Part shown: positions 53,801 through 57,956 of the stretch, piece by piece
Layout: each line of letters opens with the position of its first letter
How positions within the stretch are numbered: the first letter of the stretch is position 1
DNA from: a virus
Virus record (IMG/VR): IMGVR_UViG_3300022902_000007
Length of the DNA: 64,000 nucleotides
Direction: 5' to 3' (one strand)
Notes under the pieces: generated by a model
What the model saw: only the letters and a program-made list of their open reading frames with translations
What the model was told of the DNA's origin: nothing
Databases searched by the model: none
Position numbers and translations under genes: made by a program

Positions 53801-53840
53801 AAAAAGACGAGGTGTGGCCAAAGGCCACACCTCTCTTTTT
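53801..53840. terminator. Bidirectional intrinsic terminator closing the Ubl operon
   Basis: AAAAAGA..GAGGTGTGGCC-AAA-GGCCACACCTC..TCTTTTT. Confidence 0.8.
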
Positions 53841-53851
53841 GTCCCGCTGTT

Positions 53852-54085
53852 TTAATTGCCCTTGTTGCTCTTGGTCGCAAACACTTCGAGGGTCTGGGGA
53901 CCCAGGACGTAGGTGCTCCAACGATCACGAGTAATCATTTCGTTGTCAACGCAGAGCTCACGAGCTGAAAGGTCGTACTTGGTTGCGAACTGTGCGAGAG
54001 TGGAGCCGTTCTCGATTTGGACAGCATTCATGCCGCCAGCGAGACCGGAGCCACCGGGGACCATTACAAGGTTGAAATTTAGCAT
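53852..54085 (-). CDS. Ubiquitin-like (beta-grasp) protein ending in KGN
   Basis: 77 aa; strand-strand-helix 'GSTLAQF', 'LCVDNE', terminal strand, then Gly-Asn; directly after E1; AAGGA RBS. Confidence 0.7.
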   Translation of the reverse strand: MLNFNLVMVPGGSGLAGGMNAVQIENGSTLAQFATKYDLSARELCVDNEMITRDRWSTYVLGPQTLEVFATKSNKGN

Positions 54086-54100
54086 GCTATGTTCCTTCTG

Positions 54101-54787
54101 TTATTTGTTGAACACTTGAAGATCATCTTCAAGCATGAACGTCTTTCTCATTAGAGGTGTCCATACCTCTTGTTTCTCTTCTGCAGAGAGAATCTTACAG
54201 GCCATGTGGACAACATAACCTACGACTGGATAGACCAAGGTACTGCACATCTGCATGTTACAGGGTCCATCGTCTATTTCGTCATCATTTTTCAGAGTTG
54301 ATTCCCAGAGTTCTATCTTCTCCAGATCCATGGGATGTAGATACCAAGCCTCACCATGAGAAAACCCGAGACGTGTTTCGAATATGGCTTTCAGTCGCCA
54401 ATTGAACTTCATGGATTCCAGAATGTCTTTGCGAGCTGACATCGTGTCTACTGTGACTATCAGGATCCCTTCCAAGTCTTTCTTGTGGTTCTCAGTTGTG
54501 AAGTAGTCTTGAATAGACTCTACCTTGATACCTGGATTGAATCTCTTTAGTACCTCGGTGAGAGCGGCAACCTTTGGTTGCCCTACATGTTCTGAGTCAT
54601 ATGTCTGGTTCGGAAGATTATGAGACTCGACAATGTCTGGGTCCCAAATCTTGAAGTGAGTGAAGCCCATCTTCGCCGCGAGCAGAGCGATGTTGGAGCC
54701 AGTAGCTCCAACACCTATAATGCTCATTGGTATGGACAAGATATCAGGGTTGACGAAGCCACTGTGTCTTAGAAAGCTAACCGCCAT
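54101..54787 (-). CDS. E1/ThiF-family adenylating enzyme
   Basis: 'IIGVGATGS', 'WDPDIVESHNLPNQ', 'GQPKV', 'VDTMSAR', 'ETRLG', distal 'GPCNMQMC'. Confidence 0.9.
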   Translation of the reverse strand: MAVSFLRHSGFVNPDILSIPMSIIGVGATGSNIALLAAKMGFTHFKIWDPDIVESHNLPNQTYDSEHVGQPKVAALTEVLKRFNPGIKVESIQDYFTTENHKKDLEGILIVTVDTMSARKDILESMKFNWRLKAIFETRLGFSHGEAWYLHPMDLEKIELWESTLKNDDEIDDGPCNMQMCSTLVYPVVGYVVHMACKILSAEEKQEVWTPLMRKTFMLEDDLQVFNK

Positions 54788-55727
54788 TGCACCATGCCCT
54801 TACGATCTGCAGCTTTTCGTCATCTTCGGCATGCAATAGCTTCCTGGCTGTAAAATAGGCTTCCTTGAACTCTTCAACAGAGTACACAGAGCTACTGACA
54901 ACGTCAATGAATGCTTCTGATGCTTTTCTTGGCGATGAACCAAGAGTCAGTCCTGCCAAGATCTCCTGTTCACTTGCATAATCTAAAAGGTAAGGCATTA
55001 GTTTTATCACTGGAACAGGGATATGCCATATCATTTTCTTTGCGATTACTGCTGCTTCTTCGTGATTGGCTTCTGCGACACCCCTGATTAGCTCTTGAAG
55101 TTTGGGTGGAATACTGTCGTTGACGTTTTTCGGAAGTGAAAGCGAAGAAGGCTGCTGCCTCTTTTTGATTTTCTTGTCCAGAATCTCTTTTATGTAGCCA
55201 AGATCTGCTCCATAGGCCTTGATGTCCATGTTTTCAAAGGTCATGCCGAGATCAGGATCATATACTCTTGAGTAGTAGGATCCACTCTTGGTAAAGATCA
55301 GCATGATGACTGGAGGCTTCTGAGGACTTGGCTCGAATGCTTCCATCATGTCTTGAAAGGTTTTGTTGTCCTGGCCAGAGGGTTTTGGAGTCCCCAGGTT
55401 TGCATGACTATGACACCAACATGAGATAGTCTGGATGATTTCACTTGCTCCTTCTGTCCCATGCTCTTCCCTCAGTTCATTGAAAAATCCTACTTGCTGG
55501 AAGCCTGTGGTCTCGACTTCTGCTCCAGAACAATATTGCTCGGGAACAAAAAGATCTTCGATTATATAGCCCCACACCTTATCTGTTTTTATAGTCTTTG
55601 GCCTATAGAACCATTGGACTTCATCAGGTGCGAGTCTGACGATCTCCTTGATCTCCAGTAACGTCGACTCTTTTATGTAGAGTTTTGGCTGCAAGCCAAG
55701 TGGCTTGAGTGTTCCTGTGTTTTTCAT
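54777..55727 (-). CDS. JAB/MPN+ metallo-isopeptidase
   Basis: 'DEVQW' Glu, 'FVPEQ', 'WCHSHANLGTPKPSGQD' (HxH..SxxD). Confidence 0.8.
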   Translation of the reverse strand: MKNTGTLKPLGLQPKLYIKESTLLEIKEIVRLAPDEVQWFYRPKTIKTDKVWGYIIEDLFVPEQYCSGAEVETTGFQQVGFFNELREEHGTEGASEIIQTISCWCHSHANLGTPKPSGQDNKTFQDMMEAFEPSPQKPPVIMLIFTKSGSYYSRVYDPDLGMTFENMDIKAYGADLGYIKEILDKKIKKRQQPSSLSLPKNVNDSIPPKLQELIRGVAEANHEEAAVIAKKMIWHIPVPVIKLMPYLLDYASEQEILAGLTLGSSPRKASEAFIDVVSSSVYSVEEFKEAYFTARKLLHAEDDEKLQIVRAWCNGG

Positions 55728-55737
55728 TTAGTCTCCA

Positions 55738-57708
55738 TTATATGTCAAGCTCTTCACGAGCAGCTTCGATTAGACTGTCGATTCCCTCTTGAGAAGAAAG
55801 TTCATTTGGCTCAGGTGTCTGGATGTTATCCCAGTCTGGGTCCATGTTTACTTCTTCGAGCTTTGGAAAGTATTCATATTGACATCCCCATCCATCTGTA
55901 GAGTATGCATTTTCGACCCAATTGAGAGCGTTCAAGATGACTGTTCTGATGTCTCCATTTTGCATTGCCTTGTAAATTGCAGGAGCAGCGTCACCTAGAC
56001 AGGCTTTTCTTTTAGTACTTAGCAAAACCTCAAGGCCTCCGGCCTTGGTCATGTCGATAGAAAGTGAAGATGTATGGGGGTGGATACAGCTGAGATTACC
56101 AGAGAGCCCAAACACGCTTGCCAAACTAAGAAGTTGAATGTACAAGAGTCCATTCCCGTCGATCGTGACAACATATGGGCCGCCTACTCTTATGTCCTCT
56201 TTTCCAGCATTTTCAAATCGATCTACATGGATCATGCTTGGCTTGAGAGTGGTGAATTGCAAGAATTTCAAAGAGAAGTCTTTCGCGTAATCTATGTCGG
56301 CTGTAGTACCAAGACCTAATTTGACATTAGTATGTCCTTGCTGGATTTCCATTTCCTGGATTTTCACATGAAGTCTTTCTTCAATTGAAGACAAGATCGT
56401 GTTTGTCATTGCCTGGATTTGGTCTTCATCTATATCTTTTTCAAACTTCTCTTGTGCTCTTGTCACCAATGGCCCGATGTCCAACAGTGCTGCCTTCAGC
56501 CCCTGCAGTTTTCTGTCTTTTTTGGTACATCTGTCTTGAAGATCCTTGATTTCAATTTGAAGTCTTTCTATACGTAGAGAATTGGCTTCAATACCTATTT
56601 TACAGTCTTCAATGAGCTCTTCTGTGATTTCAGTAGTTTCTGTTATCTCTTCTTTTTTATTCTGCAAGACTTTCAGTTCTACTTTTGCCGGCAGACTGTT
56701 GATTGCGATGCTTCTCACGAAGGGTGTCATCGTTTCAGTATCGAGTCCTTTGACTTCTTGTGGAGACGTAGTGATTCTGCTGAGACTGGTGCTATTGGAG
56801 AGAATCTTGAGGGCTGTGTCTGGTAGGCCCTTCCAGTAAGCATGCAGTCTTGCTGTCTTCTGTAGAATCTCTTCTTGGTATTTGTCATAGTCTATATATC
56901 GCTGTGGTTCGTTCAGCATTAGACTTCTGAACTCAGTCAAGAAGCTTATAGCGCGCTTGTATTTGACAATCTTTTCGGGTTTGACAAACATGCCGAGGCA
57001 TACAATTGGCAGTGAGTTCCACACTTGAGTTTCTCTATTGAATACATTGAAGTAGGCTTGGTAGGCAAAAATGCATTCAGACTCTAGGGCGACTTGTTTA
57101 GATACGACTCTAAAGCCATCCCCTGTACCGCACAGTCCGTCTCCGTTTCCTCCTCTGAACAAAGACTTGAAAGAGATTACTGACAATTGCTCTGGAGCAC
57201 TTTCTAGAAAGTGCTGAGCCAAGTCAGTCTTTTCATCAGGATCTATTATCGAGAATGGAGCGATTGCATCGATTGCGCATTCAGAACTCTTGAACAATTT
57301 TGTGAACTTGGTACTATTGCCGTCCTTCCGTTTTTCCACTATCTTTGGAAGCCGTCCGTACTCGAAGTTGGAAATCTCTCCCATGCTCACCGTTGTGAGC
57401 TTGTCCAGCAAGACCTTGGGCCAGGCTGAGTCGTAAGAAACAGACCCATTATCATTTCTAAGCATTAATGAAGCATGCTGTGGCATGCAATCTACTTTGA
57501 TTGATCTCAGGGTATAACCATTCAGATGAACTGGATCTGATCCAATAATCACTGTGGGCCTTGAGGAGAAGTGTCTGGAAGATGGACCAAGTGCATATCG
57601 ATATACACTTCCGTATTTCTCCCTGTCCGAGATCCAAGCTTCATGATATCTTGAGTCTGATACTTTGTATCTCACACTTGTTCGATCCTGATAGATGATG
57701 CAGAGCAC
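55738..57708 (-). CDS. Large protein: N-terminal domain, coiled coil, C-terminal E2-like domain
   Basis: 'GGPYVVTI', 'IHPH', 'ACLGDA..AI', followed by helices; central heptads. Confidence 0.6.
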   Translation of the reverse strand: MLCIIYQDRTSVRYKVSDSRYHEAWISDREKYGSVYRYALGPSSRHFSSRPTVIIGSDPVHLNGYTLRSIKVDCMPQHASLMLRNDNGSVSYDSAWPKVLLDKLTTVSMGEISNFEYGRLPKIVEKRKDGNSTKFTKLFKSSECAIDAIAPFSIIDPDEKTDLAQHFLESAPEQLSVISFKSLFRGGNGDGLCGTGDGFRVVSKQVALESECIFAYQAYFNVFNRETQVWNSLPIVCLGMFVKPEKIVKYKRAISFLTEFRSLMLNEPQRYIDYDKYQEEILQKTARLHAYWKGLPDTALKILSNSTSLSRITTSPQEVKGLDTETMTPFVRSIAINSLPAKVELKVLQNKKEEITETTEITEELIEDCKIGIEANSLRIERLQIEIKDLQDRCTKKDRKLQGLKAALLDIGPLVTRAQEKFEKDIDEDQIQAMTNTILSSIEERLHVKIQEMEIQQGHTNVKLGLGTTADIDYAKDFSLKFLQFTTLKPSMIHVDRFENAGKEDIRVGGPYVVTIDGNGLLYIQLLSLASVFGLSGNLSCIHPHTSSLSIDMTKAGGLEVLLSTKRKACLGDAAPAIYKAMQNGDIRTVILNALNWVENAYSTDGWGCQYEYFPKLEEVNMDPDWDNIQTPEPNELSSQEGIDSLIEAAREELDI

Positions 57709-57956
57709 TACTCACCTCTTTGGCTGTATTCGAATTCTATTGATTCAACATATTCTTTTAGGATTCGTGACCGAAGTGGATCAGGATGATCTCTACGAAG
57801 TCTGATTTGTATCCATTGGTCTTGCTTCGGCTCTTCCATGATGCAATACCATATGGCGTCATTGCTCAAGTCTGGTAGTACGAAGAAGATGTATGGGCCT
57901 GTGCAACAGCCCCAATGCTTTTCAGTTTCGCAATAAATTAGTTCGTTTGAATTCAT
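57708..57956 (-). CDS. Hypothetical protein
   Basis: Coupled to the E2-like gene. Confidence 0.45.
   Translation of the reverse strand: MNSNELIYCETEKHWGCCTGPYIFFVLPDLSNDAIWYCIMEEPKQDQWIQIRLRRDHPDPLRSRILKEYVESIEFEYSQRGE

What the first reader, a model, noticed from the sequence alone, without database searches (positions are those of the whole stretch)
53852..57708. Phage-encoded complete ubiquitin-like conjugation operon (E2-like, JAB, E1, Ubl-Gly-Asn)
Seen: four contiguous co-directional genes end at a strong terminator (53801-53840). (i) A 656-aa protein with a long coiled coil and a C-terminal HPH-x24-CLG motif. (ii) A JAB protein with an upstream Glu and HSH-x8-SxxD. (iii) A ThiF/E1 with the GxGxxG, D..NL.NQ, VD...R and ETR motifs and distal Cys residues. 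(iv) A 77-aa beta-grasp-patterned protein ending K-G-N. Established: E1+E2+JAB+Ubl is the core of prokaryotic ubiquitin-like systems such as the anti-phage Bil system, where the JAB trims the Ubl to a C-terminal Gly that E1/E2 conjugate to target lysines. Inference: here the virus carries the machinery. JAB would remove the terminal Asn, and the large N-terminal and coiled-coil part of the E2 may supply target specificity in place of an E3. Possible roles are tagging host proteins, excluding competing phages, or countering host Bil or CBASS conjugation. No thiamine or molybdopterin genes are nearby, which argues against sulfur transfer.
Basis: partly seen in the sequence, partly recalled or inferred. 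Interest (0 to 1): 0.95.

Follow-up and report, generated by a model that had tools for sequence, protein, structure and literature searches.

The report
Phage ubiquitin-like tagging cassette
An uncultured marine phage carries a tight four-gene cassette for a ubiquitin-like protein, its activating enzyme, a trimming protease and a large probable transfer enzyme of unrecognised fold; similar kits have been studied only as bacterial anti-phage defences, and what this one does is unknown.

Summary
Three parts are verified.
- The 228-aa protein is a ThiF/E1 adenylation domain (Pfam 9e-22).
- The 316-aa protein carries an invariant JAMM motif.
- The 77-aa protein folds as a beta-grasp whose best structural matches are ThiS, ISG15 and ubiquitin.

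The "E2" is not verified. Its C-terminal domain has invariant HPH and Cys-Leu-Gly and gives a confident model. No UBC or Prok-E2 match rises above noise by HMM, profile or fold search.

The same gene order occurs in 16 of 16 related IMG/VR phage loci, some from complete 161-kb genomes. It also occurs in two MAG contigs, which are the only matches among 185,579 species genomes.

In relatives the Ubl is also encoded as head-to-tail poly-Ubl genes and as fusions to cargo. Every junction reads ...FATGSVKGN|x, as in polyubiquitin genes. The Asn after the Gly is invariant, unlike the variable tails of Bil Ubls. The E1 lacks the universal Arg of the NLxRQ motif.

Best reading: a phage-owned Ubl processing and conjugation system (about 0.55). 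The target, the purpose and the true C-terminal residue (Gly or Asn) are unknown.

This scan has already noted the same kind of cassette on other phage DNA. I found no paper describing it. Interest 0.72.

The parts
55738..57708 (-). Large protein 'E2L' (656 aa): N-terminal region of unknown family, central coiled coil (residues about 300-470), C-terminal conserved Cys/His domain and an acidic tail. It is the candidate Ubl transferase.
   Evidence: ORF. The family has 238 cluster representatives at E<=1e-3, all unnamed and 600-1150 aa, with the conserved part at residues about 478-640. It sits directly upstream of the JAB in 16/16 loci.
55789..56277 (-). C-terminal Cys/His domain of E2L (residues 478-640). 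Invariant or nearly invariant residues are H543-P-H545 (56074-56082), C570-L-G572 (C at 55999-56001), W597, D605 and W607-G608.
   Evidence: Alignments A2, A3 and A5. AF2 model m84a95b18adec has pLDDT 88.4 and pTM 0.82: seven strands, HPH, a loop, Cys at the start of a helix, then three helices. No significant match to solved structures.
54777..55727 (-). JAB/JAMM (MPN+) metalloprotease, catalytic domain at residues 1-190, plus a variable helical C-terminal part. Catalytic E36 lies at 55620-55622 and HSH-x8-S-x2-D at 55368-55412.
   Evidence: E36, H106, S107, H108, S117 and D120 are invariant in 23 homologues; most have the canonical x7 spacing. Weak PADLOC JAB hit, E 0.017. The nearest Atlas clusters include a Prok-JAB cluster (score 0.94, TM 0.69).
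54101..54787 (-). Minimal E1: a single ThiF/MoeB-type adenylation domain (228 aa). The Gly-rich loop is at 54698-54715 and the single invariant Cys176 at 54260-54262. The Arg of NLxRQ is replaced by Asn60.
   Evidence: Pfam ThiF 9.2e-22. PADLOC E1-E2 (Cap2) 4e-18. NCBIfam ThiF 8e-23. PDB hits by profile. Alignment of 16 sequences.
53852..54085 (-). Ubiquitin-like beta-grasp protein (77 aa) ending K75-G76-N77 (53855-53863), followed by the stop codon.
   Evidence: AF2 model m3b5be7fcefe2 has pLDDT 87. The Foldseek top hits are all beta-grasp Ubls: ThiS 1zud_2 (TM 0.61/0.71), then ISG15, ubiquitin, NEDD8 and MoaD. KGN is invariant in 27/27 units.
53809..53833 (-). Intrinsic terminator closing the operon.
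   Evidence: 11-bp stem with 8 G-C pairs, a 3-nt loop and a T run.
57708..57956 (-). Small upstream ORF (82 aa) whose stop overlaps the E2L start. Relatives have a different Cys4 zinc-ribbon ORF of about 70-80 aa at this position. Membership in the system is not established.
   Evidence: ORF. No homologue in the 16 loci by tblastn. Zinc-ribbon ORFs sit upstream of E2L in the loci.

Best explanation
This is a phage-owned ubiquitin-like (Ubl) protein modification system, expressed as one operon inside the replication and recombination gene block of a large uncultured marine phage whose complete relatives are about 160 kb.

Shown:
- a beta-grasp Ubl
- a JAMM metalloprotease with an intact active-site motif
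- a minimal ThiF-type E1
- a large protein with a conserved Cys/His domain
- conservation of these four genes together across the phage clade
- in relatives, poly-Ubl genes and Ubl-cargo fusion genes whose units all end in ...KGN

Inferred mechanism:
1. The JAB cuts precursors at the KGN boundary, and probably also reverses conjugates.
2. The E1, presumably a ThiF-like homodimer, adenylates the exposed Ubl C-terminus and may hold it on the invariant Cys176.
3. The Ubl passes to the invariant Cys570 of the large protein. The neighbouring HPH assists catalysis.
4. That protein's N-terminal and coiled-coil parts select the target, so it would act as a combined E2 and E3.

Still open: whether the reactive end is Gly76 (after Asn removal) or Asn77 itself. 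The target and the benefit to the phage are also unknown. Possibilities are host take-over, replication or nucleoid proteins, and superinfection or counter-defence.
For: - E1: Pfam ThiF 9.2e-22 and Cap2-type E1-E2 models 4e-18.
- JAB: invariant E...HxH...S..D in 23 homologues.
- Ubl: pLDDT 87, with a uniform list of ThiS, ISG15, ubiquitin and NEDD8 matches.
- Synteny: E2L-JAB-E1-Ubl in 16/16 IMG/VR loci and 2 MAG contigs. These include complete 161-kb genomes with terminal repeats.
- Poly-Ubl genes (2-4 units), 2-5 Ubl units per locus (separate genes plus fused repeats) and Ubl fusions to an RGG-like peptide or a domain of about 95 aa. All have the junction ...FATGSVKGN|x.
- E2L domain: HPH and Cys-Leu-Gly are invariant or nearly so across 54 diverse members, in the order His then Cys as in classical E2s.
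- No sulfur-transfer gene among the conserved neighbours that I annotated, which are PhoH-like, Hc1-like, a small P-loop protein and a Whirly-like protein.
Against: - No conjugate, thioester or cleavage product has been observed. Everything rests on sequence.
- The putative transferase has no significant similarity to any E2 or any solved fold. No E2 HMM hits 76 family members.
- The HPH-to-Cys spacing is 13-38 residues, against about 7-8 in canonical UBC enzymes (my own knowledge).
- The E1 has no mobile Cys domain and no E2-binding domain. It also lacks the universal Arg of NLxRQ.
- By profile, the E1 is as close to non-conjugating ThiF-family enzymes as to Cap2 or BubCD: PaaA 4e-12, TcdA 8e-9, ThiF 2e-8, MccB 6e-7.
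- The invariant Asn after the Gly is not a feature of known Ubl conjugation systems.
Confidence: 0.55

Rival explanations
1. E2-independent Ubl conjugation, as in archaeal SAMPs, Urm1 or TtuB. E1 alone activates the Ubl and conjugation needs no E2. The large Cys/His protein would then be a target, a scaffold or an unrelated enzyme that merely travels with the operon.
For: The E1 is a minimal ThiF/MoeB-like domain. No E2 fold or family could be shown for the large protein.
Against: The large protein is always the first gene of the operon, in 18/18 loci. Its invariant His/Cys residues argue for catalysis rather than a passive role.
Confidence: 0.17
2. A sulfur-carrier system of the QbsCDE, CysO-Mec or ThiS type. 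The JAB trims the Ubl, E1 adenylates it, and a thiocarboxylate delivers sulfur to a phage-made metabolite or a modified nucleotide.
For: The best Ubl fold match is ThiS. The top NCBIfam hit for the E1 is ThiF (8e-23). Ubl-JAB-E1 trios with extra C-terminal residues are known for sulfur transfer (Iyer et al. 2006, PMC1779556). E1 Cys176 lies in the C-terminal half, after the predicted crossover loop, roughly where ThiF Cys184 lies by my own reading; the alignment to ThiF does not reach it.
Against: No rhodanese, cysteine desulfurase or sulfur-acceptor enzyme in the cassette or among the annotated conserved flanks. Poly-Ubl arrays and Ubl-cargo fusions are typical of ubiquitin-like modifiers. 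The tail is K-G-N, not G-G.
Confidence: 0.1
3. C-terminal Asn chemistry rather than conjugation. The mature Ubl ends in Asn77, and the ThiF-like enzyme modifies that Asn as MccB does with the C-terminal Asn of microcin C precursors (adenylation, succinimide, nucleotide adduct). PaaA acts in a comparable way on an Asn-containing peptide.
For: The Asn is invariant even as the last codon (27/27 units). PaaA (4e-12) and MccB (6e-7) are among the solved relatives of the E1 profile. Stand-alone cargo ORFs begin M-G-A where fused ones read N|G-A. That register fits cleavage after Asn.
Against: The E1 lacks the N-terminal peptide-clamp domain of MccB and PaaA: its Gly loop starts at residue 25 of 228. 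The substrate is a folded 71-77-aa beta-grasp, not a short peptide. An invariant P1' requirement of the JAB explains the Asn equally well.
Confidence: 0.1
4. A counter-defence device. The JAB strips host Bil or CBASS conjugates, and the E1 and Ubl act as decoys or competitors for the host conjugation machinery.
For: The E1 is most similar to Cap2-type E1 among defence models. The weak JAB hits are to CBASS-type JABs. Bil and CBASS are anti-phage systems that depend on conjugation (PMC10557695, PMC10097602).
Against: The phage keeps its own complete set, including multi-copy Ubl genes and cargo fusions. That is more than a deconjugase or decoy needs. No similarity to Bil Ubl or E2 was found.
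Confidence: 0.08

Closest known systems
Bil (BilABCD, type I/II) bacterial anti-phage Ubl conjugation operons (PMC10557695; bioRxiv 10.1101/2023.09.04.556158)
   Same: Four separate genes: Ubl, JAB peptidase, E1 and a Cys-bearing transfer protein. There is no E3, and in Bil the E2 is proposed to recognise targets directly (PMC11601596). In Bil the JAB pre-processes the Ubl, which carries extra residues after a conserved Gly.
   Different: This cassette lies in lytic-type phage genomes, not bacterial defence islands. The E1 is a 228-aa single adenylation domain, whereas Bil has IAD-AAD-CYS. The residue after the Gly is an invariant Asn, whereas Bil has a non-conserved tail of up to nine residues. 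The transfer protein is 600-1150 aa with a domain that matches no E2 model. No PADLOC Bil model hits the Ubl or E2L, and the only JAB hit is a weak generic one (E 0.017).
Operon type 6d/6e of Iyer, Burroughs and Aravind 2006 (PMC1779556), which I take to correspond to the PRTRC cassette (Pfam Prok-E2_D, NCBIfam TIGR03736 and relatives)
   Same: Stand-alone small E1, JAB, E2-like protein and Ubl. Some members carry two to three tandem Ubl repeats reminiscent of polyubiquitin.
   Different: The Prok-E2_D HMM finds nothing in E2L or in three complete phage genomes. Prok-E2_D has its conserved His C-terminal to the Cys, whereas here HPH precedes the Cys. PRTRC_ThiF scores 37 bits against a cut-off of 144.75. 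hhalign against one Prok-E2_D aligns only CLGEA with CVGNA, E 0.4.
Eukaryotic polyubiquitin and ubiquitin-fusion genes
   Same: Head-to-tail Ubl repeats with no spacer, a capped or extended last unit, and Ubl fused to small basic or other cargo proteins.
   Different: No detectable sequence relationship. The junction is K-G-N rather than G-G. The processing enzyme here is presumably a JAMM protease encoded in the same operon.
Bub (6E) operons (PMC11601596)
   Same: Diverged E1, E2 and Ubl with a JAB in type I, including precursors that must be cleaved.
   Different: Bub uses Ubl-E2 and JAB-E1 fusions, a DUF6527 serine protease and oxyester intermediates. Here the genes are separate and the conserved nucleophile candidates are cysteines. 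BubCD is a distant hit for the E1 (8e-6).
JAB-ThiF gene pairs in cultured crAss-like phages (cr112_1 gp072/gp071), Flavobacterium phage FpV4 (gp51/gp50) and Xanthomonas jumbo phages
   Same: A small ThiF-like E1 (profile E 1e-21 to 1e-23) sits next to a JAMM protease with HSHNNM-x4-SGTD (hhalign E 0.0023 over 140 columns). A protein with a His...Cys motif precedes them, and all lie in the replication module.
   Different: No Ubl was recognised there. Homology of the upstream protein to E2L is not established (hhalign E 0.6 and 0.0085 over short stretches).

Membership tests
ThiF/MoeB/E1 adenylation superfamily (PF00899) | HMM match above the curated cut-off, with the Gly-rich nucleotide loop and the Mg-binding Asp | tested here: met
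   77.8 bits against a cut-off of 28.1. G25xGxxG30 and V113-D114 are invariant.
ThiF/MoeB/E1 adenylation superfamily (PF00899) | Conserved Arg of the NLxRQ motif | tested here: not met
   N-L-P-N-Q: Asn is invariant in 16/16 sequences. Solved relatives aligned read NLNRQ and NINRQ.
JAB/JAMM (MPN+) metalloproteases | E ... H-x-H-x7-S-x2-D catalytic motif | tested here: met
   E36, H106, H108, S117 and D120 are invariant in 23 homologues. Spacing is x8 in the window and x7 in most others.
JAB/JAMM (MPN+) metalloproteases | Family HMM match or MPN fold | tested here: inconclusive
   No Pfam hit. PADLOC JAB E 0.017. Profile against PDB sequences found nothing. An Atlas neighbour cluster has 23% Prok-JAB members, TM 0.69.
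Ubiquitin-like beta-grasp modifiers | Beta-grasp fold | tested here: met
   Model pLDDT 87. The top 50 Foldseek rows are almost all ThiS, MoaD, ubiquitin, ISG15, NEDD8 or SUMO, probabilities mostly 0.8-1.0.
Ubiquitin-like beta-grasp modifiers | C-terminal Gly (usually Gly-Gly) as the reactive end | tested here: inconclusive
   Gly76 is invariant, but it is preceded by Lys and always followed by Asn77. Which residue is the mature end cannot be told from sequence.
UBC/E2 superfamily | UBC fold by structure comparison | tested here: inconclusive
UBC/E2 superfamily | HPN-type motif a few residues upstream of the catalytic Cys | tested here: inconclusive
   HPH and Cys are present in that order and nearly invariant. 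The spacing is 13-38 residues, against about 7-8 in canonical E2s (own knowledge).
UBC/E2 superfamily | Match to UQ_con or a Prok-E2 HMM | tested here: not met
   No such hit in 22 + 54 family members at E up to 1-10. PF14460 finds nothing in three complete phage genomes.
Bil (BilABCD) | [quoted passage not shown] | tested here: not met
   The E1 is 228 aa with a single adenylation domain. The Bil architecture is taken from PMC11601596.
Bil (BilABCD) | Conserved Gly followed by a non-conserved tail | tested here: not met
   Here the next residue is an invariant Asn, and variable tails come only after it. The Bil feature is taken from PMC10557695.
Bil (BilABCD) | Encoded by bacteria as an anti-phage defence | tested here: not met
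   The cassette is found in phage contigs. Only 2 of 185,579 species genomes match, and both are MAG contigs carrying the whole phage cassette.
PRTRC / operon type 6d | Prok-E2_D protein and a PRTRC-type ThiF above their cut-offs | tested here: not met
   No PF14460 match. TIGR03736 scores 37.1 bits against a cut-off of 144.75.
MccB/PaaA-type peptide-modifying ThiF enzymes | N-terminal peptide-clamp domain before the adenylation domain | tested here: not met
   The adenylation domain starts at about residue 20 of 228. PaaA and MccB align from their residues about 114-124 onward.
ThiS/MoaD-type sulfur-carrier pathways | Sulfur donor or acceptor enzymes in the neighbourhood | tested here: not met
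   The annotated neighbours are PhoH-like, Hc1-like and a P-loop protein, plus a Whirly-like gene by an unchecked first-reader note. None is a sulfur enzyme. Not every flanking ORF could be annotated.

The most novel reading that the evidence does not exclude
A separate, virus-specific branch of ubiquitin-like conjugation. The modifier would be made from polyubiquitin-style genes and would end in an obligatory Gly-Asn. It would be activated by an Arg-less minimal E1 and passed to targets by a Cys/His enzyme whose fold is not that of UBC E2s. This would be an independent invention of the transfer step, used by lytic marine phages on host or phage proteins during replication.
Probability: 0.25. 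Interest if true: 0.9.

Novelty: new variant of a known kind. Interest (0 to 1): 0.72.

Why it matters
Ubl conjugation in bacteria has so far been characterised as host defence against phages (Bil, CBASS Cap2/Cap3, probably Bub). Here the virus owns such a kit and keeps it across a widespread clade of large marine phages. That raises the question of what a phage gains by tagging proteins.

The clade also has polyubiquitin-like and Ub-fusion-like gene architectures outside eukaryotes. It offers three biochemical oddities that can be tested directly: an invariant Gly-Asn end, an E1 without the conserved Arg, and a confidently modelled Cys/His domain with no structural relative.

If the large protein is the transferase, it would widen the known range of E2/E3 enzymes. 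If it is not, the system may be an E2-independent or non-conjugating Ubl pathway.

Tried and rejected
- **Cultured relatives.** INPHARED phages: no DNA match for the cassette, and no tblastn match for E2L or for the JAB domain. No cultured relative is available.
- **Word-indexed protein search.** E2L found only itself. The domain profile found three fragments and no named protein.
- **Family libraries.** Pfam, PHROGs and PADLOC gave nothing for E2L. For the Ubl they gave nothing either, and NCBIfam gave only ThiS at E 0.13.
- **Profiles against PDB sequences.** Nothing for the JAB family or the E2L domain.
- **Complex prediction, E2L domain with Ubl.** Score 0.00, no verdict. This counts neither for nor against binding.
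- **BFVD.** One uncharacterised homologue in an uncultured Caudovirales phage, and nothing informative besides.
- **ESM Atlas.** A structural neighbour with Prok-E2_D (TM 0.51) and a viral cluster with 11% Prok-E2_D members. I tested this as a lead and could not confirm it.
- **Plasmid search for PRTRC seeds.** It returned unrelated ThiF contexts only.
- **Prok-E2_D seeds.** Only 1 of 300 genomes searched in one class had a Prok-E2_D, which is too few for a profile.
- **hhalign of the E2L domain.** Against the Xanthomonas phage protein (E 0.0085, 24 columns) and crAss gp073 (E 0.6): not significant.
- **RNA evidence.** One metatranscriptome holds 100%-identical contigs over the whole Ubl gene (53845-54131), parts of E2L and a downstream gene. 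Uncovered parts and DNA carry-over cannot be judged from contigs, so expression is not shown.
- **Extra KGN sites.** None in the window. In complete relative genome G001 the only other candidate is an 873-aa ORF with ...VIVKGN|S, which may be chance.
- **Literature.** Four searches on phage-borne cassettes found no paper describing one.

Full report
**1. Observation**

The window is phage DNA. Its large ORFs include a ribonucleotide reductase, a DnaE-type polymerase in pieces, a UvsX-like recombinase, an ATP-dependent ligase and a primase. No whole genome is held for it. It has no relative in the INPHARED collection at DNA level.

They are packed as an operon (10-nt gap, 11-nt overlap, 15-nt gap) and are closed by a strong hairpin plus T run at 53809-53833. 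Every listed motif is present.

**2. The parts**

*E1.* The 228-aa protein is a ThiF-family adenylation domain:
- Pfam scores 77.8 bits against a cut-off of 28.1.
- Its best defence-library hits are Cap2-type E1-E2 models (4e-18).
- A profile of 16 family members finds solved relatives in this order: an unnamed ThiF-type protein (9egb/9egc, 3e-14), PaaA (4e-12), UBA5, TcdA, ThiF, MoeB, Cap2, MccB (6e-7) and BubCD (8e-6).
- The family keeps the Gly loop, the Mg-binding Asp and one invariant Cys (Cys176).
- It replaces the Arg of the NLxRQ motif with Asn in all 16 members.

*JAB.* The 316-aa protein has 23 homologues in the large protein collection, none of them named. E36, H106, S107, H108, S117 and D120 are invariant, which is the JAMM signature. 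Library support is weak (PADLOC JAB E 0.017). An Atlas neighbour cluster partly carries Prok-JAB. The C-terminal third is variable.

*Ubl.* With an alignment of 27 units the 77-aa protein folds confidently (pLDDT 87). It retrieves a uniform list of beta-grasp modifiers: ThiS, ISG15, ubiquitin, NEDD8, SUMO and MoaD.

*The "E2".* An exhaustive HMMER search found 238 cluster representatives. All are unnamed and 600-1150 aa long, and they share the C-terminal 160 residues. In that domain HPH, Cys-Leu-Gly, Trp, Asp and Trp-Gly are invariant or nearly so. The AF2 model is confident (pLDDT 88.4, pTM 0.82): a seven-stranded region, HPH, a variable loop, Cys at the start of a helix, then further helices.

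The domain matches nothing solved:
- Foldseek best E is 0.24.
- The second look gives the same result.

The E2 assignment therefore stays open. The domain is a conserved Cys/His module, most simply read as a thiol enzyme.

**3. Comparative evidence**

A scan of IMG/VR with the JAB family returned 16 loci. All 16 carry E2L, JAB, E1 and Ubl in the same order. Three of the source contigs are complete phage genomes by CheckV estimate (158-162 kb), two of them about 161 kb with direct terminal repeats.

Among one genome for each of 185,579 prokaryotic species, only two contigs match. Both are MAG contigs that carry the whole cassette, one of them 158 kb long, so they are probably binned phage DNA.

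The window's own sequence is held by seawater metagenomes from many studies.

The most telling feature is the Ubl gene architecture in relatives:
- Loci carry two to five Ubl units, as separate genes and as fused repeats.
- Two to four units are fused head to tail in a single gene.
- The last unit can be fused to an RGG-like basic peptide (GRPSGGGRGNNPxRGK) or to a domain of about 95 aa. That domain is a separate ORF in other loci.
- Every unit ends ...FATG(S/A)VKGN, and the next unit or the cargo follows directly.

These precursors must be cut at that boundary. This gives the co-encoded JAB a clear job and parallels eukaryotic polyubiquitin and ubiquitin-fusion genes.

**4. Gly or Asn?**

In Bil systems a conserved Gly is followed by non-conserved residues, which the JAB removes (PMC10557695). 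Here the residue after the Gly is Asn in 27 of 27 units, including genes that stop right after it.

There are two readings:
- The JAB needs Asn at P1' and removes it.
- Asn is the mature end.

The register of the cargo domain slightly favours the second. Stand-alone copies start M-G-A..., whereas fused copies read N|G-A.... E1-fold enzymes that work on Asn-containing peptides, MccB and PaaA, are among the solved relatives of the E1. Against that, this E1 lacks their peptide-clamp domain. I leave the question open, at roughly 60:40 for Gly.

**5. Mechanism and rivals**

The best reading is a phage-owned Ubl processing and conjugation system, with the large protein as a combined E2/E3-like transferase (about 0.55). 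The rivals are:
- E2-independent conjugation as with SAMPs or Urm1 (0.17)
- a sulfur-carrier pathway (0.10)
- Asn-directed chemistry without conjugation (0.10)
- a counter-defence deconjugase or decoy (0.08)

No sulfur enzyme lies among the neighbours that I could annotate. Those neighbours are PhoH-like, a chlamydial-type histone Hc1-like protein sitting between the E1 and Ubl genes in one subclade, a small P-loop protein and, by an unchecked first-reader note, a Whirly-like gene. The DNA-associated neighbours and the RGG-like cargo hint at a nucleoid or replication setting. That is speculation.

**6. Known systems and novelty**

In gene complement the cassette resembles Bil and the 6d/PRTRC operons, and it probably works like them. 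It fails defining features of both: Bil's E1 architecture, variable tail and bacterial location, and PRTRC's Prok-E2_D and ThiF models.

I found no paper on a phage-borne cassette of this kind.

This scan has already reported the same kind of cassette on other phage DNA. Those reports include marine phages of about 160 kb with poly-Ubl genes and a soil phage whose tag also ends in Gly-Asn. This window is therefore one more member of a finding the scan already has.

Related JAB-ThiF pairs, preceded by a His...Cys protein, occur in cultured crAss-like, Flavobacterium and Xanthomonas phages. Only the E1 and JAB relationship is supported there.

**7. Verdict**

- Observation: confirmed.
- Interpretation: partly supported. 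E1, JAB and Ubl hold; the E2 is unproven; Asn removal is unproven.
- Novelty: a new variant of a known kind.
- Interest: 0.72.

Noticed in passing
L007-L015, e.g. L012:8834-9022: A 62-65-aa gene between the E1 and the first Ubl gene in one subclade matches the chlamydial histone H1-like protein Hc1 (Pfam PF07432, 3.4e-14). The window's own cassette lacks it.
   Followed up: partly
L010:9421-9927, L007:8993-9280, L012:9988-10284, L014:10215-10529, L015:9306-9677: The last Ubl unit is fused after KGN to a conserved Gly/Arg-rich basic peptide (...GRPSGGGRGNNPxRGK). This recalls ubiquitin fused to small basic proteins.
   Followed up: partly
L009:10045-11196, L011:10137-10856; stand-alone copies at L014:9322-9627 and L008:10848-11156: A domain of about 95 aa ending F-x-F-Y-G-W-A is either fused behind poly-Ubl or encoded on its own (starting M-G-A...). 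It has no Pfam family.
   Followed up: partly
L009:9490-9903, L011:9544-9972: A protein of 137-142 aa begins with an 11-residue leader MSTTVIVIKGN, which resembles the last strand and KGN end of the Ubl. It may be a JAB-cleaved propeptide. The body has a weak GIY-YIG_2 hit (2e-4, just under the cut-off).
   Followed up: no
window 54607-54621 (E1 residues 57-61) and all 16 homologues: The E1 family reads H-N-L-P-N-Q. The Arg of the otherwise universal NLxRQ motif of ThiF/E1 enzymes is an invariant Asn.
   Followed up: partly
L021 (crAss-like phage cr112_1) 2304-5693; L022 (Flavobacterium phage FpV4) 2536-5606: Cultured phages carry a trio inside the replication module: a protein of about 430 aa with GYMHSH...C, a JAMM protease with HSHNNM-x4-SGTD, and ThiF. 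The ThiF is annotated only as 'thiamine biosynthesis protein'.
   Followed up: partly
L023 (Xanthomonas phage PhiXhv-15) 2247-4925: An 892-aa protein directly upstream of a 227-aa ThiF contains IHPH-x14-CLGS, like the E2L motif, and has Cys-rich ends. Similarity to E2L is not significant by hhalign.
   Followed up: partly
E2L family members in alignment A5: Two of 54 family members carry a WGR domain (1.5e-14) in their N-terminal part. L009 and L011 have CxxC-rich inserts after the Cys/His domain. The N-terminal and tail regions therefore vary modularly.
   Followed up: no
window 53845-54131: A 287-nt contig from a seawater metatranscriptome library matches at 100% and spans the Ubl gene with its leader. 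It is the deepest RNA-library piece laid on the region. DNA carry-over is not excluded.
   Followed up: partly
L003-L016, ORF directly upstream of E2L (e.g. L003:3978-4187): A conserved ORF of 65-90 aa with a C-x5-C ... C-x2-C zinc-ribbon pattern precedes E2L in the relatives. The window has an unrelated 82-aa ORF at that position (57708-57956).
   Followed up: no
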